A DNA stretch of 64,000 bases from Candidatus Woesearchaeota archaeon (GCA_038884615.1 JAWABL010000005.1:45-64044); one strand, 5' to 3'; shown: positions 4,174-52,198, counted from the stretch's first letter. Program-made: numbers and translations. Notes: generated by a model not told the origin, from the sequence alone.

Positions 4174-4662
4174 TCATCTTAACTTAATAAACCTTATATC
4201 TCCATTTTTGTAATTAAGAATTGCAATGGTTCCCTCATCACCAAAATAGTGTCCTCCTGGATTAATCATCACTGTTTGGTCAAATCTCTCTATCGTTTTT
4301 TTGTGAGTATGCCCTGTCAAAATGTAGTCATATCTTTTGCTTCTTATCATCTCCTCAATAACACTTTGATTATGCCCATGATAAGCGCCAATATGTTTTT
4401 CATTTAATTCAATCTCGCCAACCTCTCCAAGATATTCATGCCCCTCTTCGTTGCAAATTTCTGTTATCATTTCGCTGTCTCCATCGCAGTTGCCTCGGAC
4501 AAACTTCATCTTTAAACCTTTAAAAAACCTTATTGTCTTTGGAGCTACGATGTCTCCGCAATGCACAACAAAGTCTACCTTGTGAACCTTAAAGAGTTTT
4601 ACAGCTTTAAGCACATTTTTAACATTGTCATGCGTGTCAGAAATTATACCAATACCTCCCAT
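4174..4662 (-). CDS. MJ0936/YfcE-family metallophosphoesterase
   Basis: Calcineurin-like motifs SDTHDN, HCGD, GNCD and TGHTH in the canonical order. 162 aa. Confidence 0.8.
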   Translation of the reverse strand: MGGIGIISDTHDNVKNVLKAVKLFKVHKVDFVVHCGDIVAPKTIRFFKGLKMKFVRGNCDGDSEMITEICNEEGHEYLGEVGEIELNEKHIGAYHGHNQSVIEEMIRSKRYDYILTGHTHKKTIERFDQTVMINPGGHYFGDEGTIAILNYKNGDIRFIKLR

Positions 4663-4663
4663 T

Positions 4664-6793
4664 TTAACCTCCCTTTTCTACAAGCCTTACCTTGTTTATC
4701 TGTAGCCTCGCAGTATTGTTGTCTTCTACTATTATTTCAAAGTCCTCAATTAATATCTTTTTTTTGAACATAGGTCCATCAAGCACGAGGCTTTCATATT
4801 CTCCACCTTCCCCAGCGATGTTTATCTTATACATATTGTATATAGTCTTTAAGTTGTTTATAAGATTGTGGTCCATCCTTTTTCCTAGCCACTTCTGATC
4901 AAGACCAAATGCAGCAATGCTTACAAGTATAACTTCAAAGCCAGATCTTACAATCTGCCTTAATTCTAGCTCCTGGTCCATATGCCACAAAGGAGAAAAT
5001 ATCTTCAGCCCAAGTTTATCGCAGACTTTTTCTATCCTCTTTCTTTGATACTCTGAAAAAAGAGCTCCTGTTACAATCCCTTCAATGTGATATTGCTTTT
5101 TTGCGCTCTCAATCGCTCTTTCAAGGTCAAAAAGTTCAGATTCTTTCCTGCCGGCTGTTTCAAACTCCAACAGCGGAATGCCCATTGCCTCTGCTTGAAG
5201 CTTCGCAATGTCAACATTTGGGGTATGAAACATGTAACTCGCAGGATTTTTGCTTTTTATTGTTATAAGACAAGCTATCTCATAGTTTTGCTTTTGCATA
5301 AGGTGCATTGCATAAGCGCTGTCCTTTCCTGAGCTAAAAAGTACACCTAGCTTTAGGTTAGGGGGGGTATAGTATTTTTTTAGAAACTCTGATTTTAATT
5401 TTCTTTCTCTTCTTGCAAGTCTTCCTATCGCATTATCAAACCTACTGCCATACTGCGCGGCGCGCTTTTTTCGTTTTGCAAATTCTTCTTTTAATCCAAT
5501 TTTTTTTGCAAGCTCACGAAGTACAACCTTATTCTCGCCTTCACTGATTTTTAGCTGAGGTGGAATTTTAAGGGCGTATTCAACAAGTGCTATGTCCAGA
5601 AACGGCAACCTTAACTCTATGTTATTGTGCATAGTTACAACATCATCCCTATATGTGTCGCGTTCATAAATCTTCATCAGTCCAGAGAGGCATTCTTTGT
5701 TTATGTCTTTTGCTAGCTTATGCCTCTCATAGCCGGCAAAAATCTCTTCTGAGCCGAGCCCTGAAAATACTACTCTAATGCCATCATTCTTTGCAAGTTC
5801 GCACGCAGCATAAAGCGTCAAAGCAACCCCAACCTTTGTTACATTACTGTCTTCTATTAGCGGAATAACTTTCTTTATCAAGCCTTCAACCTGTTCAAGC
5901 GGTATCTTCTTTATTCGAAGCTTGAAGCCATATACTTCTGAGACTTTCTGTGCGAAAAGCAAGTCCTCTGCAATGGTCTGGGCATCATCCATAACTGCAG
6001 TGTAGCATGTAAAGTCAGCACCAAGCTGCTTTGTAATAAGTGCAATAACACTAGAATCAATACCCCCTGAGAACAGTACCCCTAATCTGTTTTTAGATAT
6101 CCTTTTTGCTATCGCATTTCTTAGGAGAAAGTAAATATCATCCACTATTTGCTCTTTTGTACGTTTTATGATTGGCTCTATTTCAAAGAAAGTCCTTTGA
6201 ACAAATTCAGTTTCCATGGTTTTTGTGTTGTAAAAGAGCATTTCTCTTGGGTTTAGCTCTATAACCTTCTTATAGCCGAGCGCTATGAGACTCTTCTTCT
6301 CTGATGCAAAAGCAAGCCCCTTCTCTATGCTGTACCAAAGCGGTTTTATACCTATAATGTCTCTCGCAAGCACTACCTTTTCACCTTTCCAATAACAAAA
6401 ACTATAACTTCCATCAAGTTCGCTTAAAACCTTACGAATATCAGGGACTTTCTCAATAATTTTCAGAAGCAACTCTGCATCATTTCTGCACTTTATATTA
6501 TAAATATTTGAAAGCTCAGGCCAGTTGTATATTTCACAATTAACAACAAGAAGCCCTTCTCCCTTTATTGGCTGTGATACATATCCCACCATTGCATGAA
6601 GACAATGGGCTACGGCCATGTCTTCTTCCCATCTTTTAACATCCTCCATCTCTTCTAAACATTTTTTATGAATTATTTTATCTTTACAGCCTATGCCGAA
6701 ACCGTCCCTACCGCGTTCCTTCATTATTTTGAGCCCTAGAATAGCCATCTCAGGCGCATTCTTCATATTAAAGATTCCTATTATTCCGCACAT
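4664..6793 (-). CDS. Three-domain fusion: class-II glutamine amidotransferase + asparagine-synthetase-type PP-loop domain + C-terminal Dph6/MJ0570-like (diphthine-ammonia ligase type) PP-loop ATPase
   Basis: N-terminal MCGIIGIF supplies the Ntn Cys2. The AsnB PP-loop is LFSGGIDSS (about aa 240). A second PP-loop, LFSSGKDSAYAM (about aa 485), is followed by TGA..SEYQR, IFSPLW and GEGGEYESLVLDGP, typical of the MJ0570/Dph6 family. Confidence 0.8.
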   Translation of the reverse strand: MCGIIGIFNMKNAPEMAILGLKIMKERGRDGFGIGCKDKIIHKKCLEEMEDVKRWEEDMAVAHCLHAMVGYVSQPIKGEGLLVVNCEIYNWPELSNIYNIKCRNDAELLLKIIEKVPDIRKVLSELDGSYSFCYWKGEKVVLARDIIGIKPLWYSIEKGLAFASEKKSLIALGYKKVIELNPREMLFYNTKTMETEFVQRTFFEIEPIIKRTKEQIVDDIYFLLRNAIAKRISKNRLGVLFSGGIDSSVIALITKQLGADFTCYTAVMDDAQTIAEDLLFAQKVSEVYGFKLRIKKIPLEQVEGLIKKVIPLIEDSNVTKVGVALTLYAACELAKNDGIRVVFSGLGSEEIFAGYERHKLAKDINKECLSGLMKIYERDTYRDDVVTMHNNIELRLPFLDIALVEYALKIPPQLKISEGENKVVLRELAKKIGLKEEFAKRKKRAAQYGSRFDNAIGRLARRERKLKSEFLKKYYTPPNLKLGVLFSSGKDSAYAMHLMQKQNYEIACLITIKSKNPASYMFHTPNVDIAKLQAEAMGIPLLEFETAGRKESELFDLERAIESAKKQYHIEGIVTGALFSEYQRKRIEKVCDKLGLKIFSPLWHMDQELELRQIVRSGFEVILVSIAAFGLDQKWLGKRMDHNLINNLKTIYNMYKINIAGEGGEYESLVLDGPMFKKKILIEDFEIIVEDNNTARLQINKVRLVEKGG

Positions 6794-6850
6794 CTTCTCT
6801 CACTTTTTCCAGTTACCTTTTTTGAACTTATGAATTTCAAAATTTTGCAT

Positions 6851-7384
6851 CTACCTTTCAAAAAGTACCCTCTTTTCTCCTTGATAAAGCCCCATGCTTG
6901 TCATTTGATAGTACTGCTCTTCTGTAAGGGAAAGGTCGCTAATCAAAAATTTATACTTGTCTCTTATCTCTGCGCAAATCCTTTTAATCTCTCCATGGTC
7001 CAGCCCTTCGCCGATGAGAAGAATATTTGCTCTATCTTTCTGCTCCCTGCCATGTAATATTATGCGTCTTATTCCTGGCATTTTGCTTACATGCGAGATG
7101 AAAAGCTTTATGATATGGGTGTCTTCTTTAAAAATTTCGCCAAGAAAGTCTGTCTTTTTCCCTCCTTTTAGTCTGTAAAGTTTTATTCTGCTTACTTTTT
7201 GAACTTCAATTATGTCGTTCTTGGCAAACTTGTTAAGTATTCTTGAAGTGGTTGCTATCGGCACGTTGCTTTGCTCTGAAACTTCCTGAAGATAAAACTG
7301 TTTTGTGCGGTCGCGAAAAAAAACTTTGAGTATCCTTATTACCTTCTTGTCAAACAACCCTTCAAGTACTTCCAGCTCTTCCAT
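6851..7384 (-). CDS. Putative winged-helix transcriptional regulator
   Basis: An N-terminal HTH-like segment (FYLQEVSEQSNVPIATTSRILNKFAKNDIIEV). The C-terminal half is unassigned. Confidence 0.5.
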   Translation of the reverse strand: MEELEVLEGLFDKKVIRILKVFFRDRTKQFYLQEVSEQSNVPIATTSRILNKFAKNDIIEVQKVSRIKLYRLKGGKKTDFLGEIFKEDTHIIKLFISHVSKMPGIRRIILHGREQKDRANILLIGEGLDHGEIKRICAEIRDKYKFLISDLSLTEEQYYQMTSMGLYQGEKRVLFER

Positions 7385-7562
7385 AAAAAGATGAATAACA
7401 TAATAAATATTAAAATATTTTCATTTTTGGAATTGTTTTCTTATTTTGAAATTAATTTTCATTTTTGATAATAAATTATTAAGACCATTTAAAAATGGTT
7501 TTTATACTTTTATTCTTACTAGTTTTATCCATTTAGAAATATTTAGTAAATTAGCCAGAGAC

Positions 7563-9329
7563 TTAAGATTTCCTTTTTTTCTGTCCAGCAAATAATCCTT
7601 GTATGGTTTTTAGCGTGTCTATATCCTTGATAGACTTGTCGTCTCTCAGTCTTATGAATCTTGGAAATCTTAATGCATATCCACTTGAGTAAGATGGTGA
7701 TTTTTGAATCTCTTCATACTTTACTTCAATTACCACCTTCGGTTTAACTACCGCAGTTCTGCCTTTCTCTTCAATAATAAGCGGTTTAAGAATGTCGGTC
7801 ATTTCCTTGAAACTGGTTCCCTCTTCTTCAAGCTCTTTTAGTCCTGTGCTTACTTTTCCAACTTCAAGAAGCTTATCGCCATCTCTGCATGCAAGAGTAT
7901 AGCTTGTAAGCATCTTTGCTCTTTTGCCTTCTCCCCACTCAGCAGCTACAATAGCAAGGTCAAGGCTTTCCATTGTAGGTTTTATCTTTACTCCATACCC
8001 TACTCTGCTTCCTGGCTTATAGACTGCACTTAAGTTTTTTCCCATTATGCCTTCATTGCCCCTATCCAATGCTTCTTGATAGAATTTTTCTGCTTCTTCT
8101 CTAGTTTTTGCTATAATGAGCCGTGAAGGAAGAATCTTCCTTTCTATAGGTTCTATAATCCTGCAAATTAGTGCTCTTCTCTCATTAAAGGGCATTGAAA
8201 TCGTGCTTTTTCCGTTATAATAAAGAATATCAAAAACATTGACTTCAACTGGAAAATCTCTTGCCATTTCAGAGATATTGTACTTTCTCCTTATTCTTTG
8301 AGATATGCTTTGAAAAGGAAGGTACTGGTTTGTTTTTGGCTTTAAACCCACTGCTTCTGAGTCAAGTATGAAGCTTTCACCCCTAACATACTTCTTAACA
8401 TATTCTATGATGTCTGGAAACTGCTCAGTTACATTCTCAAGCCTTCTTGTAAAAAGTGCTATCTTTTTTTCGTCTTTATGTATCTGCACCCTAAATCCAT
8501 CGTATTTATACTCAAATGCTGCAGGCTTCCCTACTATATCAAAAGCGTCGTTTATGTCCTTGGCTTTTTTAAAAAGCATTACCTGGACAGGCCTGCCTGG
8601 TTTTAATTCAGCTTCCTCTATGGCTTTAGTGCCTTTTGTTTTAATTTTATTGGCAATCTCACCATAGTCGTTTGTTATGTCATAAGCCTCCTGTAAAAGG
8701 TTTATATAGCGATTATATTCATCTCTTCGTCCTTCTGGAATTATAAGCTCTTTTTTTCCTTCATCATAACTAATTCCTAATTCCTTTGAGAAAAAAGCCC
8801 AAACTATCGCGTCTCTTATTGCACTTTCACCTATCCCAACTCGGAGGTCTTCAAGTATTGTTCTTACGATATATCTTGCTTCTTCAGGTTTCGAGCTCGT
8901 CAAAAGCTCTGCAATAAGTTTTATCTTCTGCTCAACAGAACCTTCTCCTTCAAGTTCTGCAAGCTTCTTGATGTTTGAGAAAACCTTTTTTACGCTTAGC
9001 TCGCATTTTCCGAGAGTGTGTTGTCTTTTTTTCTGAAAAATTTCAAGAGCCGCAGTTCCTAAATCACCTGTTTTTTTCCATCTCTCCTCAACTTCTCTTA
9101 GGCTCAATCCTGATGCCAGGCTAATTGCTTTTAGAATAAGCTTAGATGCAACGCCAATCTTTCTTTCATCATACGAAGGAAACACTTTACCTTCTAATAG
9201 AAGAAGAATTTCCTGAATGGTTTCAGGAGATGTTTTCTTGATTAGCTCTGCGATTATATGCGTCTTTTCAAGCCTTTTTGTGGTCTTTTCCAGTTTTGAA
9301 TAAACTTCTGCAAGCTCAGAATATTGCAT
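7563..9329 (-). CDS. lig: ATP-dependent DNA ligase (archaeal/eukaryotic type)
   Basis: Adenylation motif I is FEYKYDGFRVQIHK. Length (588 aa) and the downstream EG..KxxxSxYxPGxR-like motif (YKPGSRVGYGVKIKP) fit the family. Confidence 0.9.
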   Translation of the reverse strand: MQYSELAEVYSKLEKTTKRLEKTHIIAELIKKTSPETIQEILLLLEGKVFPSYDERKIGVASKLILKAISLASGLSLREVEERWKKTGDLGTAALEIFQKKRQHTLGKCELSVKKVFSNIKKLAELEGEGSVEQKIKLIAELLTSSKPEEARYIVRTILEDLRVGIGESAIRDAIVWAFFSKELGISYDEGKKELIIPEGRRDEYNRYINLLQEAYDITNDYGEIANKIKTKGTKAIEEAELKPGRPVQVMLFKKAKDINDAFDIVGKPAAFEYKYDGFRVQIHKDEKKIALFTRRLENVTEQFPDIIEYVKKYVRGESFILDSEAVGLKPKTNQYLPFQSISQRIRRKYNISEMARDFPVEVNVFDILYYNGKSTISMPFNERRALICRIIEPIERKILPSRLIIAKTREEAEKFYQEALDRGNEGIMGKNLSAVYKPGSRVGYGVKIKPTMESLDLAIVAAEWGEGKRAKMLTSYTLACRDGDKLLEVGKVSTGLKELEEEGTSFKEMTDILKPLIIEEKGRTAVVKPKVVIEVKYEEIQKSPSYSSGYALRFPRFIRLRDDKSIKDIDTLKTIQGLFAGQKKRKS

Positions 9330-9435
9330 GCTTATTTATTTGTTGGTGAAGTTTAAAAAATTTTTGCAAAAGTTTTTATATATGAAATATATAAAGAGAA
9401 TCTATCAAGATTTAATTGTAATAATTAATAATTAG

Positions 9436-10137
9436 GTGTTTGATGCTATGGATGTTTTGGAATGCATAAGGACACGGCGTTCGATAAGAAAGTTTCAGGA
9501 TAGACCTGTGGAGTGGGAAAAAGTTGGGCGAATGCTTGAGGCTGGAATGAACGCTCCAACTGCCGGAAATATTCAGGACTTTAAATTTATAATTATTTTA
9601 GATCCTGAAAAAAAACAGGCGCTCGCAGAAGCGTGTCTTCAGCAGTATTGGGTAGCGTCTGCACCAGTAATAATCTTACTGTGCTCAGACTTTACAAAAA
9701 CACAGCGATTTTATGGAATAAGAGGTGAAAGACTCTATTCTATTCAAGATTGCGCCGCCGCTGCAATGAATATGCTTCTTGCAGCACACGCCCAGGGGCT
9801 TGGTGCTTGTTGGGTAGGTGCTTTTGACGAGGATGCTGTAAAAAAAATAGCAGGCATACCTGATTATGCAAGGCCACAGGTTGTGATACCAGTTGGCTAT
9901 CCTGGCGAGAGTGTACCCGCACCACCTAAGTTTAAGATAGAGAATGTGGTTTTCATTCACCGCTGGGGAAGGAGGGAATGGAATTTTGACACAGAAGGCG
10001 TTAAAGACTGGAGTCCTATCGTAGAGGCGAAGATAAAGAAAGTCAAAGGTGTTTTGCAGACAGATGTTGGAACGCTTTTTGACAAGCTTGACAAAAAAGT
10101 AAAACAGATTTCAGAGAAATTTAGAGCAAAAAAATAA
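9436..10137 (+). CDS. Nitroreductase-family flavoprotein with a charged C-terminal extension of about 50 aa
   Basis: RRSIRKF motif, plus P.AGN.Q and ACWVG segments. ATG at 9448, 10 nt after AGGTG, is the more likely start than GTG 9436. Confidence 0.8.
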   Translation: MFDAMDVLECIRTRRSIRKFQDRPVEWEKVGRMLEAGMNAPTAGNIQDFKFIIILDPEKKQALAEACLQQYWVASAPVIILLCSDFTKTQRFYGIRGERLYSIQDCAAAAMNMLLAAHAQGLGACWVGAFDEDAVKKIAGIPDYARPQVVIPVGYPGESVPAPPKFKIENVVFIHRWGRREWNFDTEGVKDWSPIVEAKIKKVKGVLQTDVGTLFDKLDKKVKQISEKFRAKK

Positions 10138-16476: not shown

Positions 16477-18033
16477 TTATCTATTTTTTGTTATGTAGTT
16501 TGCAGCGGACCTTGCTTTCATAGCAGGAACTGCGTAATGAAATATGCCTGAAGAGGGTAGGTCAAGTGCAGACTTTAAATGAGGGTTTAACATATAAAAC
16601 TCATCTTCAGACATTCCGTACTTTGTGCATAGTTCAGAAACAATATTGCTTACGGCCGCTTTCCCTCTCTGTGATGGGACTTTTATTATTTCGTTTGGCT
16701 TTATACCCGTTTTTATCTTATTCAGAGATTTAATGGAATCAACAGAAACACCATATCTCTTTGCAATTGATTGAATCGTATCTCCTTTCTTAACTGTGTA
16801 CATTGTATATGGAGAGTAGTAGCCCTCCATTATTGAGAACATGCTTGCAAAATCTGTTTTTTTACTAGACAAGTAAGTATCTAAGCCTTCGCGCTCAATT
16901 ATCTTTTTAACAGCATACCATTTTGGTGGATAATTTAGTGTTTCCTTAACAAACCCCTCAATCTCTTTAGTGCATCTGTAGTCCTTTCTTTTGCATCGCT
17001 CTTTTATCTCTTTTAGTCTGTTTCCATTAAATCTCAAAAAACCATCGTAATTAAAACTTATGCCATTCTTGTTGCTGCTGTTGCTATTACAGTAGACCCA
17101 TAATCCTCTTGTTTGGTTTCTTGGCATTCCGCTGTTATACTGTGCAAGCATTAATGGTACTATACTTGTTGGTTCTGTGTTGTTCTTAAAGAATTTTTGT
17201 TCATCCTTGAGAAACTCTGCGGCTTTTATAGTAGCTAGAAGAGAAAACTTTCTTTCATCATATACACTCCCTACAATAGGGGTTTTTATAGCTTTGACTT
17301 TTCCGCTTTCTGTTATATACTTGGTTTTATACCCTATAGTACCTATTCTATTGTCAATAAATAGACCATATTTTTTTGCAGTTGATGGAATAAACTGCCA
17401 TAGTCCAACAGCGCCTCTATTTGAAACGGCTTCAGGGTCTCCTGCAGACTCTGTTATGAAGAGATAAACTAGGTCTTCAGATAGGCCATGTTCTCTAAAA
17501 ATTCTCTTCATTGCAGGTATGATATGCATGTTCTTTTGTAATGCTTTTTCAATAGTTCCTTTGTGAGAGCCAGAAGAATATTTCTCAATCCATTTATAAA
17601 CTAAGAATTCGTTTGCTTTGGCAGGTTCATTTATTAGGTACTTGATTAGTTCATTAATCTCATTTTCATCAAGTCTTATACTTGTCCCATTTTCATAGAC
17701 AGAATCTGTTATGCTTTCAAGCGATGTATCTTTTATTGGTGTCAGTGAGGTCTTTTGCTTGTCTACTATTTTTCTTGAATTTTCAACTGTTTCTTCTAAA
17801 TTTGAGGTCTCTTTTTTTTTCTTGCCTTGATTATAGGTGTTTTCTACATATTTAGATGATTTTTCATATATTCCCTGTATAAGGCTAGAAGTATTGTTTA
17901 CTAGTTTATTAACTGTTCCGGGCATATATGACTCTATACCTAAGGTCAAGGCAGTTACACCTATCAAGGTCTCCAATGCCCTTCTTTTGACTCTTTGCCA
18001 TCTGTTTAGTTTTATTATAGGGTATTCTCTCAT
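16477..18033 (-). CDS. Membrane-anchored family-1 lytic transglycosylase (SLT domain) with a C-terminal LysM domain (MltD-like)
   Basis: N-terminal hydrophobic segment LIGVTALTLGI. SLT motifs ITESAGDPEAVSNRGAVGLWQFIPSTAKKYG and AQYNSG. LysM segment YTVKKGDTIQSIAKRYGVSVDSIKSLNKI...IIKVP. Confidence 0.8.
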   Translation of the reverse strand: MREYPIIKLNRWQRVKRRALETLIGVTALTLGIESYMPGTVNKLVNNTSSLIQGIYEKSSKYVENTYNQGKKKKETSNLEETVENSRKIVDKQKTSLTPIKDTSLESITDSVYENGTSIRLDENEINELIKYLINEPAKANEFLVYKWIEKYSSGSHKGTIEKALQKNMHIIPAMKRIFREHGLSEDLVYLFITESAGDPEAVSNRGAVGLWQFIPSTAKKYGLFIDNRIGTIGYKTKYITESGKVKAIKTPIVGSVYDERKFSLLATIKAAEFLKDEQKFFKNNTEPTSIVPLMLAQYNSGMPRNQTRGLWVYCNSNSSNKNGISFNYDGFLRFNGNRLKEIKERCKRKDYRCTKEIEGFVKETLNYPPKWYAVKKIIEREGLDTYLSSKKTDFASMFSIMEGYYSPYTMYTVKKGDTIQSIAKRYGVSVDSIKSLNKIKTGIKPNEIIKVPSQRGKAAVSNIVSELCTKYGMSEDEFYMLNPHLKSALDLPSSGIFHYAVPAMKARSAANYITKNR

Positions 18034-18188
18034 AATTCTACTTAAAATATACTTATTTATAAATTTTTCGCTACTTACTAGTAGTTATTTGTTGTTTTTC
18101 TAGTAAGAATTGGTAAGTTCTGAAAAATTACAACCTACAATAGTAAATAGTCTAACTATAAATAAAAATGCTGCAAATAAAAATAGTC

Positions 18189-19445
18189 TTAATTAAAATG
18201 GCCCCCTTTGGCAATGAAAACCTCTGTTTCGGGTTTAATTATTGAGGATAGTATATGGGGGTTATTTGTTTTTACCTGTGTTTTTGAAATTCCATATTGT
18301 CTTGCTATCTCTTCAAGAGTTTGCACCTTTTCGGCTCTTAAAACCTTGACTTGTTTAGAAAAAGGAATTTGTGGTGCAACAGAAATCTCTTCATACTTAT
18401 TCTCAATAATGTAGGCTGCTCCAAAAATCTTTGTTAGGTGTTCATGCCTCATTTTTGGTAACAAATAAGCGAGTGTCTCATAAACCTTTCTTTCATCCCC
18501 TTGTTCTACAGCCTTTTTTATCTTTGGATTCTTGGCTATCGTGTCTATGTTTGGATAACCAATATTTAAAGCAGCTATCCCAAGTACAATACTATCATAC
18601 CTTGCGGCCAAATTTGCTAGATGAACCGCGTTTTTTAAAATAACAGAAGGGTGCTTCCGTTCATCAATATGCCTATTGACTTTTATGTTCTGCTCTTTTG
18701 CTGTAAATGGCTCATACTGTGCAATACCTACATTATTTGCGCTAACAGCATCAAGCTTGCACTCTGATTCCACAGACCAGTTTGCATACAAAATACTTTT
18801 TGGCAGCCCACTTATTGCAGAAGCAATGGAGGCATAATCATCATACTTGCTTCCTCTCTCTAGAGCTTCCTTTAGGGTTTTTTTCCTCCATTCGTTTGAC
18901 AAAATCCTTTCTACATAATACTTTATTTTTTGTGACTCAAATGATACCCTTCTTGCTTTTATTGTCAATGAAAATTGTTCAAAAGCATCCATCCTCGGTT
19001 GGGTCATACTTCCTGCATTCTCGTTTGATCCTTCAACATGATAGTTAGTTCTGTTGTTCTTCTTTTCCTCTTCTATATGCTCCTTGTAGCTACTTTCACA
19101 CTTATCGTTGTAATTATTATTGATATGTCTATTCTTATCTAGAATTGTTGAAACGCTGTCGTCTATTGAATTATAAGTTAAAAGACCAACATTTGCCATA
19201 GCCGGCTGACTTATATTTACTTCCCATCTATTATAGTTAGATGGTTTTGATGTATTTGTATCACTCCCAACAACAAGGCTATTTCTTGATTCCAATCTTT
19301 TTGGTAGTCTGTATTCAGTTCTTGTACTAATCCTGTCTGCTGAAAAATATGTTGCAGTGGTGAATGCAAGGCAAAAACATACCGCCTTTATTGTTTTATG
19401 ATATTTTTTTTCTAGTTCATATTCCATTTTATTTTCTATCCCCAC
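18189..19445 (-). CDS. Second, more divergent SLT-like protein with a LysM-like C-terminus and an N-terminal membrane anchor
   Basis: WSVESECKLDAVSANNVGIAQYEPFTAKE (ES...S...G.xQ pattern), ALNIGYP, and a C-terminal VQTLEEIARQYGISKTQVKTNNPHI...EVFI. The annotated start is GTG 19445; an ATG alternative is at 19427. Confidence 0.6.
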   Translation of the reverse strand: MGIENKMEYELEKKYHKTIKAVCFCLAFTTATYFSADRISTRTEYRLPKRLESRNSLVVGSDTNTSKPSNYNRWEVNISQPAMANVGLLTYNSIDDSVSTILDKNRHINNNYNDKCESSYKEHIEEEKKNNRTNYHVEGSNENAGSMTQPRMDAFEQFSLTIKARRVSFESQKIKYYVERILSNEWRKKTLKEALERGSKYDDYASIASAISGLPKSILYANWSVESECKLDAVSANNVGIAQYEPFTAKEQNIKVNRHIDERKHPSVILKNAVHLANLAARYDSIVLGIAALNIGYPNIDTIAKNPKIKKAVEQGDERKVYETLAYLLPKMRHEHLTKIFGAAYIIENKYEEISVAPQIPFSKQVKVLRAEKVQTLEEIARQYGISKTQVKTNNPHILSSIIKPETEVFIAKGGHFN

Positions 19446-19849: not shown

Positions 19850-21064
19850 TTAGAGATTTTTTTCGGCAAAATCTACCATCTCTTTCCAGTCTAATATCTC
19901 TGCCGCTTGCCTCGCTAGTTCTTCTTCTTTTAGTGCAATAGCTATCCATTTTGCAAGGTCATTTTTGCCGTTGTTTATATATCTTCTAAATGTATTCTCA
20001 TCCATTATTTTAAGTCCATCTATAAATGCTTGCCTACTATCTATAAGAAATCCATTAGGAAGATGGAAGTGAAACATTGTTGGAAGTTTTTCCATCCTTC
20101 TTTTTGTAACAATGTCGTTGTTTTTTTGCTGGACGCTGCTATCTGTTTTGCTTATTTGGCTCTGAAGCAGGGTTTTAAAATCTTGGCTTTGCATATGCTC
20201 TTTTACCGCTGTTTTTACTTGTGCATTTAGCATGTATGGAATATTTGCCATTATTGCTTCTCTGACTTGAATTGTCACTGCCTTTGCGATTTCATTTGTG
20301 AGTTCTTTAAGCAGTGTTTCTTTTAAAATCTGGCTGATTTCTTGGTTTTGCAAGATAGACCCCTCAGATTTTTGTATTCCTTCGAGACTATCTGTAATTA
20401 TAGGTATTGATTTTTGTTCTGGTTTATCTGCACTTTTTTCAGAATGCTTAATAGTAGAAGATTCTTTAGGTATTTGCGACTCTAATCTTTTTTCAGGATG
20501 TGTTGTTTGCTGTGTTGCTTGTGATGGGGGTGAAGCAGTCTTATTAGTAAAAGGCTTTGTGAATTCAAGCTCCTGCTCGTCCTCAACAATAAACGGATTA
20601 AACCGGTTTGTGACAATCTCATATAGTCCCATAAACTTCTCCATGTTTTTGTCTATTATATCCATCTTATGCGTGTATGCATCAAGCGATGATTTTACGG
20701 TGTTTATGGCTGTGTTGTTCTCACCTAGCTTATTCTCAAGCTCTTTGATTCTTGTGTTCAAGTTGTTATCAATCTCAATAAGTTCCTTAATTTGCTGCAT
20801 TATCAAGTTAGTTACTCTTTCGTTTTCTTCAACTCTTTCAATGTCCACATACTCGTATCTTTGTTGGTTCTGTGAGCTTAAGCTGTTTCCAAAAGACTGA
20901 GGCTGTGATGCTGACTGAATTTGGCTTAAGCTTGGCTTAGGCGATGAAGAATTCTGGATGGTTGGCTGTGCCTGTGCTCCGGCAAGTTCATTGAGCTTTG
21001 CTCTTAATTTGTCAAGCTCTGCATTGTTGACAGTAGTGTCTTTCTTGAATAACCCCAGCGCCAT
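19850..21064 (-). CDS. Archaellum accessory FlaC-like coiled-coil protein with a Q/S-rich N-terminus and an extra C-terminal domain
   Basis: A coiled coil ends in MEKFMGLYEIVTNRFNPFI, the FlaC/D/E-type YE.v.n.fNPF motif. The C-terminal 90 aa (FHFHLPNGFLI...GKNDLAKWIAIAL) is a separate module. Confidence 0.6.
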   Translation of the reverse strand: MALGLFKKDTTVNNAELDKLRAKLNELAGAQAQPTIQNSSSPKPSLSQIQSASQPQSFGNSLSSQNQQRYEYVDIERVEENERVTNLIMQQIKELIEIDNNLNTRIKELENKLGENNTAINTVKSSLDAYTHKMDIIDKNMEKFMGLYEIVTNRFNPFIVEDEQELEFTKPFTNKTASPPSQATQQTTHPEKRLESQIPKESSTIKHSEKSADKPEQKSIPIITDSLEGIQKSEGSILQNQEISQILKETLLKELTNEIAKAVTIQVREAIMANIPYMLNAQVKTAVKEHMQSQDFKTLLQSQISKTDSSVQQKNNDIVTKRRMEKLPTMFHFHLPNGFLIDSRQAFIDGLKIMDENTFRRYINNGKNDLAKWIAIALKEEELARQAAEILDWKEMVDFAEKNL

Positions 21065-21264
21065 CTACACTCCTCAGCAATTAATAGTATAAATACTTTG
21101 TTCACTATCTACGAATAAAAAATATATTATCTTATAGACTTACTTTATAGCTAAATTTTGTTGACATAGCTTCTTATTATTCTGAAACATAAGTCGATCC
21201 TAAAGTATAAAATCTAATCTGGCTAAATTAGAAAGCATTATCTTAAAGGATTATCTAATCTATT

Positions 21265-22299
21265 TTATCCAACTGGCCAGAGCGGTGTTTTTACACTTTG
21301 GATTATATCAGGAGTTCTTGCTTGGGCCTGTGTAAGCCTACCTTTTTCTGAGGAATATATAAACCTAAATTCTTCTTGTATGCCAAGGCTTTCATCAATG
21401 CTTGATGCTGGTATAGTGAAGATAAGGTTATTTGCTGCATCTGTAATGTTAGTTTCAGGGACAATATGGCTTCTTAGCTTGAAAAGTATCTCAAAAACCT
21501 CTCCGTCTCCGAGTACAAGATCGTCATCGCCATGCATGACAACAAAGCAGTATTTTAAGTTTGGAGCAACAGTTTCAAAACTGCATTCGCTTGGATTGCT
21601 TGTTATGTTGAAATCCGCGCTTGTAACATTTATTCCATCATTAATATTAGTTGTTCCGACAATATGGAAGTAGCCATAGTAGTATCCATCCTGTCCGATT
21701 ATTGGCTCGTCTCTTATTTCCATCACTACTGGATTTGAAGCTGCGGATGTTAAATTATAACCTAAATCCACATAATAATAACCTGCGGTTGAAAGATTAA
21801 ATAAAATATAATTGCTTATATTATTTGGCTTGTAGATGGTTACCTTGTCTGTTTTTCCATCTCCATCAAGGTCAAATAAGTTTGTAGGTGTTGCATTTAA
21901 TATATTTGTGGTTAGCTTCCAGTTAAATCCATTAGGATCAACAGCGGGGTCGTTTAGAGCCCAATGCTGCAATGATGCAGGACTGTCTGTGTTTTCACCT
22001 ATAAAGTTCAAGTCAAATCTTTTCATCTGCAATGGATCTGAGCCAGCGTCTAGTCTTATAAGTGTTTCAAAGTCGTTAAGCTTTTCTGTGGTTTTATTCC
22101 CCCTGGCTGTTATGGATATTATTTCTATTGCGTTTGTTATCTTCTTTCTTGATTCTTGTCCTGTTATTAACGCCCTCTGCTGGAGAACACCTGAAGTTGA
22201 GATAAGAACACCGGCAGCAACAGCTGCAACAAGAATTGTTGCGATAAAAATAATTAGGGTACCAATTCCCATTAAAGCCCTTTTTTGCAATTTACGCAT
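21265..22299 (-). CDS. arlB: Archaellin (FlaB/ArlB family), paralog 2
   Basis: KRA|LMGIGTLIIFIATILVAAVAAGVLISTSGVLQQRALITGQ. The body is divergent but shares a DLDGDGKTD...FNLSTAG segment with the other two paralogs. Confidence 0.75.
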   Translation of the reverse strand: MRKLQKRALMGIGTLIIFIATILVAAVAAGVLISTSGVLQQRALITGQESRKKITNAIEIISITARGNKTTEKLNDFETLIRLDAGSDPLQMKRFDLNFIGENTDSPASLQHWALNDPAVDPNGFNWKLTTNILNATPTNLFDLDGDGKTDKVTIYKPNNISNYILFNLSTAGYYYVDLGYNLTSAASNPVVMEIRDEPIIGQDGYYYGYFHIVGTTNINDGINVTSADFNITSNPSECSFETVAPNLKYCFVVMHGDDDLVLGDGEVFEILFKLRSHIVPETNITDAANNLIFTIPASSIDESLGIQEEFRFIYSSEKGRLTQAQARTPDIIQSVKTPLWPVG

Positions 22300-22326
22300 A
22301 GTTGCCTAAAATAATTTGGTAATGAA

Positions 22327-22334
22327 TATTTAAA
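22327..22334 (-). promoter_or_regulatory. Candidate BRE/TATA for archaellin paralog 2
   Basis: The minus strand reads GCGAAAGATTTAAATATTC, with the TATA about 30 nt upstream of ATG 22299. This implies a very short leader. Confidence 0.35.
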
Positions 22335-22350
22335 TCTTTCGCTTGCTTGT

Positions 22351-22515
22351 GGCTGCGTTCAAAATCTCGTTTTTGGTCGGTTTAACATCATGTTGGCACT
22401 TTTCCATTCAAATCAAAATATCCTGGTTCTCCGTATGGAACAACTCACCTCAGACCCGTATATGTTCCTGAATGTGCATACGCGGTGGATGCTAACACAC
22501 TTTTTGAACGGTGCC
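22351..22515 (+). mobile_element. MITE-like element, copy A (right terminal repeat decayed)
   Basis: It is the reverse complement of 53964-54127, with about 12 differences over about 165 nt by eye. The left end is GGCTGCGTTCAAAA. The right end TTTTGAACGGTGCC is degenerate. No flanking duplication is visible. Confidence 0.6.
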
Positions 22516-23165
22516 CTCTATATTTAGTATTATTCCTCTCTTATATCCTTATTCTATCTTATTTCTTATTATATCTCTTCTTATTCGTTTCTTTATTATT
22601 TTTCTTTTTGCTATTTATTATTTAATCTATTACTTAATATTAATCTATTACTTAACTTATTTAGTTTTTAGCTATTCACTTTCCCTTTTTCGTATATTAA
22701 AGGAAACTTTCTGTTAAATACCATGGCCTTTTTTTGTTATTTCAGATTATCTTTTATTGCTTCTTTGCTATTACTTTGGTTCTTTAATCCTTCTTTAATA
22801 TGTTCTTTGTTTTATCATCGGAATGTGGTTGCTTGTTTATGTGCTTTTTTACCTTTTTTTGTACAACTTGTCTTCTCATTATTTATTCTTTTATTTTTTA
22901 CATCTTATTAGAGCTATTCAAAACCAGTTCGGCTTTTAAATGGTAGACCTATTTTCTTATATCTCTTTTTTTTGCATGTCCTAATTATGTTTAATTATAT
23001 AAGAACATATATAAGAACAATATTAGAAACTGCTTCGTATAAAAAAAAAGCAAAGATTTATAAATCCTAGTTTCCCTTTTTTGGAATTTATCGGAAATCT
23101 ATAAGAGATTGGATTGTGAGCTTTTGTCAACTTAAAACCCTATAAAACCACAAAAAAAGAGACTG

Positions 23166-23714
23166 ATGAAAAGGCGTGATGACCTTAGATACCTCACTTA
23201 CGATGAGTGGGAGCGGCTTATTGCCTCAGTAGACAGCCTTAGGGATATTCTTATTCTAAGGTTACTTTATGAAACCGGATGCACTGTAAACGAGCTTGTT
23301 CATATAAAAATAAAGGACATAGATTTTCATAGGCATACTGTTAAAATTCATGCTGAGAACAGCAGAAACCATGAGTTTAGGGAAACGGTCATATCTCCTA
23401 AGCTTGCAGCGCTTATAAGAGAGTTTGCAAGCAAAAACATCCACAGCGAGTTTCTTCTTTATACAAGACAGAGCAAATCAATGACTACAAAAAGGATACG
23501 GCAGATAGTTCAGCAGCGGTGTGTAAATGTAGGCATTGAGAATGCAAATCCTCAGACTATCAGATATACCCATATTGCTCATGCTTACCAGAAAAGTGTT
23601 CCAGTTGATGCAATAATAAGGCAGGTCGGACTTAAGCGCTCAAGGGCGATACAAATCTTCAGCCAGCTCTCGCTTATCGGACCCAGAGATGCCTACAAGA
23701 AATTTTTAGCATAG
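23166..23714 (+). CDS. Tyrosine-recombinase-fold protein (catalytic domain only), apparently catalytically inactive
   Basis: It aligns by eye to the Xer catalytic domain: LLYETGCTVNEL against LYATGLRVSEL, NPQTIRYTHIAHAY against SPHVLRHAFATHLL, and QVGLKRSRAIQIFSQ against LLGHSDLSTTQIYTH. Arg-I becomes T40, His-II becomes Q130, His-III becomes L156 and the nucleophile Tyr becomes F165. Only Arg-II (R133) is retained. Confidence 0.7.
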   Translation: MKRRDDLRYLTYDEWERLIASVDSLRDILILRLLYETGCTVNELVHIKIKDIDFHRHTVKIHAENSRNHEFRETVISPKLAALIREFASKNIHSEFLLYTRQSKSMTTKRIRQIVQQRCVNVGIENANPQTIRYTHIAHAYQKSVPVDAIIRQVGLKRSRAIQIFSQLSLIGPRDAYKKFLA

Positions 23715-23725
23715 AGGTAAAACGC

Positions 23726-52198
<28,473 letters not shown>

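What the first reader, a model, noticed from the sequence alone, without database searches (positions are those of the whole stretch)
16477..19445. Tandem membrane-anchored MltD-like lytic transglycosylase / LysM proteins in an archaeon
Two adjacent genes encode N-terminally anchored proteins with goose-lysozyme/SLT catalytic motifs (ES...GLWQF...QYNSG) and C-terminal LysM modules. Both are bacterial peptidoglycan tools. Every lineage marker in this window is archaeal, and archaea lack murein. Located next to archaellum genes and a giant adhesin, these proteins suggest the organism binds and locally cleaves bacterial cell walls. That could serve attachment, predation or nutrient scavenging, and the genes were likely acquired horizontally.
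Basis: partly seen in the sequence, partly recalled or inferred. Interest (0 to 1): 0.62.

Follow-up and report, generated by a model that had tools for sequence, protein, structure and literature searches.

The report
Woesearchaeal MltD-like bacterial-wall-cutting enzyme pair
A tiny hot-spring archaeon of the Woesearchaeota group carries two adjacent, intact, surface-tethered enzymes built like the bacterial cell-wall cutter MltD, which most likely bind and cut the walls of neighbouring bacteria; the genes are real and native, but enzymes of this kind in these archaea have been reported since 2013.

Summary
Both genes exist as described. P1 (16477-18033, minus strand, 518 aa) and P2 (18189-19445, minus strand, 418 aa) each have an N-terminal hydrophobic helix, a disordered stalk of 100-150 residues, an SLT catalytic domain and a C-terminal LysM. 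The catalytic Glu-Ser pair is intact in both (E195-S196, E226-S227). Both AlphaFold models match Pseudomonas aeruginosa MltD best.

The LysM of P1 is significant in Pfam. The LysM of P2 shows up only by alignment with relatives and by fold.

The organism is a DPANN archaeon of the Woesearchaeota type: 1.33 Mb, 92% complete, from a hot-spring metagenome. I found no Mur-ligase, PBP or amidase genes in it.

The contig is not chimeric:
- There is no tetranucleotide break.
- P1 has an archaeal BRE/TATA promoter.
- Further SLT genes lie on other archaeal contigs of the genome.
- SLT domains occur in 148 of 301 high-quality genomes of the phylum.

The two genes are distant paralogues, not a recent duplication. 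P2 belongs to a clade with 13 Woesearchaeales sequences and no named bacterium. P1 is a rarer type, found in full in 2 of 401 genomes of the order.

Adjacency to archaellum genes is not conserved in relatives.

The likely function is cleavage or grip of bacterial murein, which is inferred and untested. The idea is already published (Castelle 2015 and 2021, Vigneron 2022, Strock 2025). This is a new member of a known kind.

The parts
16477..18033 (-). P1: 518-aa MltD-like (family 1D) lytic transglycosylase with LysM
   Evidence: ORF. Pfam SLT and LysM. Aligns with 24 bacterial MltD-like proteins along the whole catalytic module. The AF2 model's best PDB matches are P. aeruginosa MltD 8rhf/8rhe/8rhi, E 3e-9.
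17911..17979 (-). P1 N-terminal hydrophobic helix (residues 19-41), preceded by basic RVKRR: a signal peptide or membrane anchor
   Evidence: Kyte-Doolittle 19-residue maximum of 1.16. The model has a helix at residues 11-30. There is no lipobox, unlike bacterial MltD.
17617..17910 (-). P1 stalk (about residues 42-139), mostly low-confidence or disordered
   Evidence: pLDDT is below 50 over residues 36-47, 71-120 and 133-139.
16879..17616 (-). P1 catalytic domain (about residues 140-385). It carries E195-S196, G210-L-W-Q213, T218, D259-E-R261, Y299-N300-x-G302 and Y368. Two lineage-specific insertions lie at about residues 229-257 (predicted beta-hairpin) and about 303-337 (disordered).
   Evidence: Invariant columns of alignment A1. 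Residues printed. PDB 8rhe aligns across the ES-GLWQF segment. Secondary structure.
16675..16800 (-). P1 LysM domain (residues 412-453), the only Pfam-significant LysM in the genome
   Evidence: Pfam 1e-14. Whole-genome scan finds one hit. Predicted beta-alpha-alpha-beta at pLDDT 83-93.
16519..16656 (-). P1 C-terminal degenerate LysM-like module (about residues 460-505, '...YMLNPHL...')
   Evidence: It resembles the C-terminal module of P2 (BLASTP 9e-4) and the cryptic LysM1 of PaMltD (stretch 2, not significant on its own). No Pfam hit. Low pLDDT.
18034..18070 (-). Archaeal-type promoter of P1: BRE/TATA 'GCGAAAAATTTATAAATA', with the TATA box starting about 30 nt before the ATG
   Evidence: The same TTTA[TA]A box at -28 to -32 precedes the DNA ligase, the M24 peptidase, the FlaC-like gene and other genes of the window.
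18189..19445 (-). P2: 418-aa divergent MltD-like lytic transglycosylase with a packed LysM-like module
   Evidence: ORF. Pfam SLT 4.7e-7 over the whole domain. 490 relatives at E<=1e-3 among 1.84 billion representatives, best 2.8e-14. AF2 core pLDDT above 93; best PDB matches are PaMltD, E 6e-11, target TM-score 0.71-0.72 over about 267 columns.
19338..19436 (-). P2 N-terminal helix (residues 4-36; hydrophobic core 'IKAVCFCLAFTTATYFSA')
   Evidence: Kyte-Doolittle maximum of 1.28. Model helix at residues 4-35.
18966..19334 (-). P2 disordered, Asn/Ser-rich stalk (residues 38-160) with no relatives
   Evidence: pLDDT below 50. No relative aligns before about residue 120, and the best ones start near residue 161.
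18381..18938 (-). P2 catalytic domain (about residues 170-355). It carries E226-S227, G240-I-A-Q243, T248, D261-E-R263 and N294-x-G296. H336 stands where most relatives have the Tyr that hydrogen-bonds the catalytic Glu.
   Evidence: Alignments A2 and A3. Column read-out.
18207..18356 (-). P2 C-terminal LysM-like module (residues 364-413)
   Evidence: Below the Pfam threshold (E 0.025 to 1.1). Aligns with the LysM of relatives, with N395 and P396 invariant. Predicted beta-alpha-alpha-beta. Covered by the structural match to PaMltD catalytic domain plus LysM1.

Best explanation
P1 and P2 are native, expressed-looking genes of a Woesearchaeota-type DPANN archaeon. Each encodes an exported, membrane-tethered lytic transglycosylase of the MltD type (family 1D, CAZy GH23).

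Each protein has four parts: an N-terminal hydrophobic helix that directs export and probably holds it in the archaeal membrane, a disordered stalk of 100-150 residues, a lysozyme-fold catalytic domain with the single catalytic Glu, and a LysM glycan-binding module.

I found no murein or pseudomurein synthesis genes in the families I searched. The substrate is therefore most likely the peptidoglycan of bacteria the cell touches. In that model LysM grips the glycan strand, and the Glu cleaves the MurNAc-GlcNAc bond to give 1,6-anhydro-MurNAc ends. This would open the bacterial sacculus locally, for attachment, access to the host cell, killing or scavenging.

Shown here: identity, fold, conserved catalytic residues, archaeal context and wide distribution in the lineage.
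Inferred: export, the substrate and the biological purpose.

The two genes are old, distant paralogues of different ancestry and not a fresh duplication. P2 belongs to a clade that holds Woesearchaeales sequences and no named bacterium. P1 belongs to a rarer MltD-like lineage whose only full-length archaeal relative found is in genome G170.
For: Identity
- Pfam, NCBIfam and PHROG hits.
- Full-length alignment of the P1 catalytic module with bacterial MltD; E195, S196, G210, W212, Q213, F214, T218, D259, R261, N300, G302 and Y368 are invariant.
- These are the family-1D motifs defined for PaMltD: E144-S145, G159LWQ, N215 and Y249 (PMC11327851).
- P2 keeps E226-S227, G240, Q243, D261, R263, N294 and G296.
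- Both AF2 models match PaMltD 8rhe/8rhf/8rhi first.

Host and absence of a substrate of its own
- All named relatives of the HisRS are Woesearchaeota, Nanoarchaeota or Nanobdellota.
- Mur_ligase_M, PBP transpeptidase and Amidase_2 are not found in the 92%-complete genome.

Native genes, not a chimera
- Tetranucleotide correlation of 16477-19445 with the genome is r = 0.956, at the 76th percentile of 3-kb windows.
- P1 has an archaeal BRE/TATA at -30.
- Further SLT proteins lie on contig C21 (998 aa, between eRF1 and SMC) and contig C7 (757 aa, weak hits, next to RadA).
- SLT occurs in 49 of 61 close relatives and in 148 of 301 high-quality genomes of the phylum, including single-contig genomes.

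Ancestry
- P2 lies in a clade with SH-aLRT support of 99: 13 Woesearchaeales sequences plus 16 unnamed representatives and no named bacterium.
- Its best relative, P0241, lies among archaeal genes (Rpb4, L11, TYW2).
- P1 is sister to the G170 protein, which lies between a DHH gene and the archaeal nre gene.

Literature
- The same inference has been drawn for Woesearchaeota and Pacearchaeota (PMC8204110; PMC9723730).
- Archaeal peptidoglycan hydrolases of another type have been shown to kill bacteria (PMC12352652).
Against: - No activity, export or expression data exist for these proteins or for any Woesearchaeal lytic transglycosylase.
- The N-terminal helices are only moderately hydrophobic.
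- P1 carries two insertions in the catalytic domain, one next to the substrate cleft, whose effect is unknown.
- P2 deviates in three motif positions: GIAQ for GLWQ, ALN for AYN, and H336 for the Glu-orienting Tyr. Its LysM is degenerate.
- LysM and GH23 folds also bind chitin-type glycans; MltD and MltE were crystallised with chito-oligosaccharides.
- No bacterial partner is identified.
- The read-level check of the assembly was uninformative. The one public run holds only short contigs at depth 3-6.
- The genome is 92% complete, so the absence of murein genes is not absolute.
Confidence: 0.7

Rival explanations
1. The proteins act on a glycan other than murein that contains GlcNAc. Candidates are chitin or chito-oligosaccharides in the environment, or a surface glycan or pseudomurein of an archaeal host. 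The bacterial enzyme would then have been repurposed.
For: LysM binds chitin and can bind pseudomurein (PMC12352652 citing Visweswaran 2012). MltD and MltE crystal structures hold chito-oligosaccharides in the cleft. P1 has insertions and P2 has motif changes that could alter specificity. DPANN hosts known so far are archaea (PMC8204110 abstract).
Against: All catalytic and sugar-contacting motifs of murein lytic transglycosylases are kept in P1, and most are kept in P2. The lytic-transglycosylase reaction as described for PaMltD uses the C6 hydroxyl of MurNAc. From my own knowledge, pseudomurein has beta-1,3 links and no MurNAc. Strock et al. found that archaeal peptidoglycan hydrolases are almost absent from the pseudomurein-making classes.
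Confidence: 0.12
2. One or both proteins, P2 above all, are binding-only adhesins. They would grip bacterial glycan strands without cutting them.
For: P2 has GIAQ, ALN and H336 in place of the consensus GLWQ, AYN and Tyr, and sits on a long branch (end branch 1.49). It lies 4 kb from a 9,490-aa adhesin-like ORF.
Against: The catalytic Glu-Ser pair is invariant across the whole P2 clade, including P2 itself. His or Phe at the Tyr position recurs in several clade members, which points to tolerated variation. The fold is predicted with pLDDT above 93.
Confidence: 0.1
3. The enzymes serve the cell's own surface machinery, as FlgJ, SltF or VirB1 do in bacteria. They would open the cell's own envelope for the neighbouring archaellum or pilus.
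For: The pair lies between archaellin and FlaC-like genes. NCBIfam gives a weak hit to a flagellar assembly lytic transglycosylase (1.1e-5).
Against: No murein or pseudomurein synthesis genes were found. In genus g6 relatives the block of giant gene, recombinase-like gene, archaellin and FlaC is conserved without any SLT gene beside it. Homologues of P1 and P2 in G170, G024 and the P0241 contig lie among unrelated housekeeping genes.
Confidence: 0.04
4. The two genes are bacterial DNA joined to an archaeal contig by misassembly or binning error.
For: All named relatives of P1 in genome collections are bacterial, at 23-35% identity. The only public run found gives no continuous read support.
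Against: - Archaeal genes flank both sides on one 64.8-kb contig.
- Composition matches the genome.
- P1 has an archaeal promoter.
- No bacterial protein exceeds about 35% identity over the catalytic module.
- Further SLT proteins lie on other archaeal contigs, and half of the phylum's genomes, including closed ones, carry SLT.
- Exact-match pieces inside both genes and in the flanks have similar low depth in the independent assembly.
Confidence: 0.02

Closest known systems
MltD of Pseudomonas aeruginosa and E. coli (lytic transglycosylase family 1D, CAZy GH23; PDB 8rhe, 8rhf, 8rhi)
   Same: Shared architecture: membrane tether, long linker, SLT catalytic domain and LysM. Shared motifs: the ES catalytic pair, GLWQ, AYN and the Glu-orienting Tyr, all present in P1. 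It is the best structural match for both P1 and P2. The P2 match covers the catalytic domain plus the tightly packed LysM1.
   Different: - Only 17-20% identity to the solved structure, and 24-35% to any bacterial homologue.
- No lipobox; a hydrophobic N-terminal helix takes its place.
- One LysM (plus one degenerate module in P1) instead of four.
- P1 has two insertions in the catalytic domain.
- P2 has GIAQ, ALN and His variants.
- The host makes no murein, so a housekeeping role in the cell's own wall turnover is not possible.
Murein-like lytic transglycosylase proteins of Woesearchaeota and Pacearchaeota (Rinke 2013; Castelle 2015, genome AR20; Castelle 2021 'fam00969'; Vigneron 2022)
   Same: Same archaeal lineage, same catalytic domain and the same proposed role of binding and degrading bacterial walls. 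The genome's own 998-aa SLT protein on contig C21 falls in the same tree clade as P2.
   Different: The published family is described as large extracellular proteins of up to 3,000 aa. P1 and P2 are compact (418-518 aa) tether-stalk-SLT-LysM proteins. P1 is a separate, rarer MltD-like lineage, found in full in 2 of 401 genomes of the order.
Archaeal modular peptidoglycan hydrolases shown to kill bacteria (Strock et al., PLoS Biol 2025)
   Same: An archaeon encodes a catalytic domain plus a wall-binding domain of bacterial origin, aimed at bacteria. That survey found Nanoarchaeota to be rich in such proteins.
   Different: The enzyme discussed in the passages I read is an M23 (zoocin A-like) endopeptidase of Halobacteriales with PG_binding_1 domains. 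It is not an SLT-LysM glycan cutter of a DPANN archaeon.

Membership tests
Lytic transglycosylase family 1 / Pfam SLT (PF01464) / GH23 | Significant match to the SLT profile above the curated cut-off | tested here: met
   P1 scores 41.0 bits and P2 29.8 bits against a cut-off of 21.3. The P1 match is split by an insertion, but the rest of the domain aligns.
Lytic transglycosylase family 1 / Pfam SLT (PF01464) / GH23 | [quoted passage not shown] | tested here: met
   P1 has E195-S196, invariant in alignment A1. P2 has E226-S227, with E226 invariant in A3. The motif is defined in PMC11327851.
Lytic transglycosylase family 1 / Pfam SLT (PF01464) / GH23 | Release of 1,6-anhydro-MurNAc products from peptidoglycan | not testable with these tools
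   Needs purified protein and sacculi.
Subfamily 1D (MltD) | Motif II G-L-W-Q in the clamping loop | tested here: met
   P1 has G210-L-W-Q213, so the feature is met for P1. P2 has G240-I-A-Q243, so it is only partly met for P2.
Subfamily 1D (MltD) | AYN(x)G sugar-binding motif, and a Tyr that hydrogen-bonds the catalytic Glu (Y249 in PaMltD) | tested here: inconclusive
   P1 has Q-Y299-N300-S-G302 and Y368, so the feature is met for P1. P2 has A-L-N294-I-G296 and H336 in the Tyr column. His or Phe also occurs in five other members of its clade.
Subfamily 1D (MltD) | Fold: catalytic domain with N-terminal helical extension and a LysM packed against it | tested here: met
   Foldseek top hits are 8rhf, 8rhe and 8rhi for both models: P1 at E 3e-9 and P2 at E 6e-11 with target TM-score 0.71-0.72. 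These rest on predicted models. The mean pLDDT of P1 is only 68, although its core is above 85.
Subfamily 1D (MltD) | Lipoprotein signal with a lipobox Cys | tested here: not met
   The bacterial homologues carry L-x-S/G-C. P1 and P2 have no lipobox and have a plain hydrophobic helix instead.
LysM (PF01476) | Profile match above the cut-off; beta-alpha-alpha-beta fold | tested here: met
   P1 residues 412-453 score 54.6 bits against a cut-off of 20.9. P2 residues 364-413 score 9.7-15 bits, below the cut-off, but align with the LysM of relatives and fold as beta-alpha-alpha-beta.
Woesearchaeota/Pacearchaeota large murein-like LT proteins (Castelle 2021, fam00969) | Encoded in a Woesearchaeota or Pacearchaeota genome and carrying a murein LT domain | tested here: met
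   Taxon from the named relatives of the HisRS. SLT domain. P2 shares a clade with the large SLT proteins of relatives.
Woesearchaeota/Pacearchaeota large murein-like LT proteins (Castelle 2021, fam00969) | Large extracellular protein (up to about 3,000 aa) | tested here: not met
   P1 is 518 aa and P2 is 418 aa. The 998-aa protein on contig C21 fits that description better. Membership in the authors' cluster itself could not be tested.

The most novel reading that the evidence does not exclude
The compact tether-stalk-MltDcat-LysM1 proteins (P2 type) and the giant SLT-tipped surface proteins of Woesearchaeales may descend from one ancient capture of a bacterial MltD. They would then have diversified inside the archaea ever since; the clade has SH-aLRT support of 99 and holds no named bacterium. 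About half of the phylum's genomes keep at least one SLT domain. If so, contact with bacterial cell walls would be an ancestral and widespread trait of this DPANN radiation, and many Woesearchaeota would have bacteria, not archaea, as partners or prey.
Probability: 0.3. Interest if true: 0.55.

Novelty: new member of a known kind. Interest (0 to 1): 0.27.

Why it matters
Hosts and lifestyles of most DPANN archaea are unknown. Murein-cutting enzymes in cells that appear to make no murein are among the few genomic hints that some of them live on, or prey on, bacteria.

This locus adds two well-defined targets of tractable size (418 and 518 aa, against several thousand residues for the giant family members). 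An enzymatic test of that published hypothesis could use them. The locus also shows that at least two different MltD-derived lineages coexist in one genome.

It does not change the picture already drawn by Castelle et al. (2015, 2021), Vigneron et al. (2022) and Strock et al. (2025).

Tried and rejected
1. Contig chimera: rejected on composition, promoters, flanks and paralogues. The direct read-level test failed. The only public run holding the sequence is a hot-spring metagenome kept as short contigs at depth 3-6, which shows exact pieces but no continuity.

2. Recent tandem duplication: rejected. P1 and P2 share only a 34-residue similarity at E = 9e-4 and fall in different parts of the tree.

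3. Naming a donor lineage for P1: not possible. The best bacterial relatives come from Thermodesulfobacteriota, Bdellovibrionota, Acidobacteriota, Bacteroidota, Nitrospirota and Zixibacteria. All are at 23-35% identity, and the placement of P1 has weak support.

4. Functional link to the archaellum: not supported by synteny in relatives.

5. Phage or mobile-element origin: PHROG hits are only the generic SLT and LysM families of tail lysins and endolysins, and there are no phage genes nearby. The recombinase-like gene at 23166 belongs to the conserved giant-gene block, not to the SLT pair.

6. The word-index search for P2 found nothing, not even P2 itself. The exhaustive HMMER search was needed.

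7. The look-up of encoding contigs failed twice because the machine was down, then worked.

8. The organism's own record name was withheld by the tools. The taxon rests on the named relatives of its HisRS.
Full report
**1. Observation**

The window holds two adjacent minus-strand ORFs at exactly the stated coordinates: P1 (16477-18033, 518 aa) and P2 (18189-19445, 418 aa).

- P1 matches Pfam SLT (1.6e-10) and LysM (1e-14). Its best NCBIfam model is murein transglycosylase D (6e-17, far below that equivalog's cut-off).
- P2 matches SLT over the whole profile (4.7e-7).
- The claim of a LysM in P2 needs softening. Its C-terminal module scores only E = 0.025 to 1.1 against Pfam LysM. It does align with the Pfam-significant LysM of its relatives. 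It is also predicted as a beta-alpha-alpha-beta unit at pLDDT above 93.
- The N-terminal 'anchors' are single, moderately hydrophobic helices preceded by basic residues (Kyte-Doolittle maxima 1.16 and 1.28). They fit a signal peptide or a signal anchor. Neither has a lipobox.

**2. Organism and surroundings**

- The neighbours are archaeal: three archaellins, a FlaC-like protein, an ATP-dependent DNA ligase, a Dph6-type fusion, and a 9,490-aa ORF.
- All named relatives of the HisRS are 'Candidatus Woesearchaeota', 'Nanoarchaeota' or 'Nanobdellota' archaea at 50-59% identity.
- The genome is 1.33 Mb in 44 contigs and 92% complete.
- The only public run that holds the sequence is a hot-spring metagenome.
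- The genome shows no Mur-ligase middle domain, no PBP transpeptidase and no Amidase_2, and its only Pfam-significant LysM is that of P1. The cell therefore most likely makes neither murein nor pseudomurein.

**3. Artefact test**

- The region 16477-19445 correlates with the genome's tetranucleotide profile at r = 0.956. That is the 76th percentile of all 3-kb windows and higher than the flanking archaellin genes.
- P1 is preceded by 'GCGAAAAATTTATAAATA', with the TATA box 30 nt before the ATG. The same box at the same spacing precedes the DNA ligase, the M24 peptidase, the FlaC-like gene and others.
- The genome has further SLT proteins in plainly archaeal settings. One is a 998-aa protein between eRF1 and SMC on contig C21. 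Another is a 757-aa protein with weak SLT and PG_binding_1 hits next to RadA on contig C7.
- SLT domains occur in 49 of 61 nearest relatives and in 148 of 301 high-quality genomes of the phylum (122 of 225 genera), single-contig genomes included.
- The read-level check was uninformative, because the run is kept only as short low-depth contigs. Exact pieces do lie inside both genes and in the flanks at similar depth.
- I consider chimerism excluded for practical purposes.

**4. What the proteins are**

P1:
- It aligns with 24 bacterial MltD-like proteins along the whole catalytic module. Invariant residues are E195, S196, G210, W212, Q213, F214, T218, D259, R261, N300, G302 and Y368.
- These are the family-1D hallmarks described for P. 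aeruginosa MltD: E144-S145, G159LWQ, N215, and Y249 hydrogen-bonded to the Glu (PMC11327851).
- P1 differs in four ways. It has a 29-residue insertion predicted as a beta-hairpin (about residues 229-257). It has a disordered insertion (about residues 303-337). It has a single LysM plus a degenerate second module. It lacks a lipobox.
- Its model (mean pLDDT 68, core above 85) matches PaMltD first, at E 3e-9.

P2:
- It has 490 relatives at E <= 1e-3 among 1.84 billion representatives. The best is only 2.8e-14, and all of them cover residues from about 120-240 onward, most from about 170, to about 410.
- It keeps E226-S227, G240, Q243, D261, R263, N294 and G296. It has GIAQ for GLWQ, ALN for AYN and H336 in the Tyr column. 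His or Phe also appears there in five other clade members.
- Its model (core pLDDT above 93) also matches PaMltD first, at E 6e-11 with target TM-score 0.71-0.72 over about 267 columns. That span is the catalytic domain plus the packed LysM1.

Both proteins have a disordered stalk of 100-150 residues between the helix and the enzyme. This mirrors the long linker of PaMltD.

**5. Ancestry**

- P1 and P2 are not recent duplicates; BLASTP gives 9e-4 over 34 residues only.
- In a quick maximum-likelihood tree of 130 catalytic domains, P2 lies in a clade of 30 rows with SH-aLRT support of 99. The clade holds 13 Woesearchaeales sequences, including the genome's own 998-aa protein, and 16 unnamed representatives. 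It holds no named bacterium.
- The best P2 relative, P0241 (SLT plus LysM, 309 aa), sits among Rpb4, L11, HisRS and TYW2 genes, which is an archaeal setting.
- P1 pairs with a 422-aa SLT-LysM protein of genome G170 (SH-aLRT 88; 33% identity). That protein lies between a DHH phosphoesterase and the archaeal nre gene.
- No other genome among 401 of the order has a full-length P1-type protein, and none of the 27 family relatives does.
- Homologues in G386 and G046 nest inside Thermodesulfobacteriota and Nitrospirota groups, which suggests later separate transfers or contamination.
- Named relatives of P1 in genome collections are all bacterial, at 23-35% identity, and spread over many phyla. No donor can be named.

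**6. Context**

- In three relatives of genus g6 the block of giant protein, recombinase-like gene, archaellin and FlaC-like gene is conserved. The SLT pair is absent beside it. In G024 another giant ORF of 2,431 aa lies there.
- Homologues of P1 and P2 elsewhere lie among housekeeping genes.
- The adjacency to archaellum genes is therefore lineage-specific and gives no support to a role in archaellum assembly.

**7. Mechanism and rivals**

The best-supported reading (about 0.7) is that both proteins are exported and tethered to the membrane by the N-terminal helix. The stalk would hold them away from the cell. LysM would bind glycan strands of bacterial murein, and the Glu would cleave MurNAc-GlcNAc bonds to 1,6-anhydro ends. 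The result would be local opening of a bacterial wall for attachment, access, killing or scavenging.

- Shown: identity, fold, catalytic residues, native archaeal status and conservation across the lineage.
- Inferred: export, substrate and purpose.

Rivals:
- A different glycan substrate such as chitin or an archaeal host glycan (0.12).
- A binding-only role, especially for P2 (0.10).
- A role in the cell's own envelope machinery (0.04).
- Misassembly (0.02).

**8. Comparison and novelty**

- The closest characterised family is MltD (family 1D). P1 meets its sequence and fold criteria apart from the lipobox. P2 meets the fold and the catalytic pair but varies in three motif positions.
- The phenomenon is published. 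Murein-like lytic transglycosylases in Woesearchaeota and Pacearchaeota were noted by Rinke 2013 and Castelle 2015. [quoted passage not shown] Vigneron 2022 interpreted them as predation tools. Strock 2025 cites them and shows that archaeal peptidoglycan hydrolases of another type kill bacteria.
- Earlier reports of this scan reached the same verdict on similar loci in other DPANN genomes.
- What this locus adds is modest. It shows two compact MltD-derived proteins of different ancestry side by side, a rare P1 type with two insertions, and evidence that compact and giant SLT proteins of Woesearchaeales share one clade.

Noticed in passing
window 19850-26725; L119, L120, L121 (G005:C9, G024:C1, G015:C1): The block of FlaC-like gene, archaellin (21265-22299), 182-aa recombinase-like gene (23166-23714) and start of the giant ORF is conserved in order and orientation in three relatives of another genus. 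The archaellin is 56% identical, the recombinase-like protein 53-54%, and the giant's N-terminus about 30%. The 'dead recombinase' is therefore a fixed partner of the giant gene, not a mobile-element remnant.
   Followed up: partly
window, upstream of the genes starting at 9329, 11818, 16382, 18033, 21064, 55902 and 61368: A TTTA[TA]A box lies 28-32 nt before the start codon of many genes, which fits leaderless archaeal transcripts. Other genes (FtsZ, archaellin 14353, the gene at 4662) instead have a GGAGG/GGTG Shine-Dalgarno-like motif 5-10 nt upstream.
   Followed up: partly
G000 contig C21 (L115:6061-9057) and contig C7 (L116:3896-6169): The same genome encodes a 998-aa protein with an SLT domain at residues 597-677, between eRF1 and SMC. 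It also encodes a 757-aa protein with weak SLT and PG_binding_1 hits next to RadA. These are probably the 'large extracellular' wall-directed proteins described for this lineage.
   Followed up: partly
L111 (G170:C23) 5898-9563: The only full-length archaeal relative of P1 lies between a DHH/DHHA1 phosphoesterase and the archaeal nre gene. An earlier report of this scan proposed the same position as an exchangeable slot for wall-hydrolase cassettes in Woesearchaeales.
   Followed up: partly
L028 (G386:C80) and L026 (G046:C51): The MltD-like proteins of these two genomes of the order nest inside Thermodesulfobacteriota and Nitrospirota groups in the tree. G386 is only 71% complete. This is either recent transfer or bin contamination.
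   Followed up: no
L117 4353-6930 (GCA_964445995.1 contig): The best relative of P2 (309 aa, SLT plus LysM) lies directly beside a HisRS gene. In the window the HisRS gene lies 2.3 kb from P1. This could be a remnant of synteny or a coincidence.
   Followed up: no
L120 596-7891 (G024:C1, about 514.6-521.9 kb): Where the window has the SLT pair, G024 has a second giant ORF of 2,431 aa convergent on the FlaC-like gene. Its last 80 or so residues resemble a stretch of the window's archaellins.
   Followed up: no
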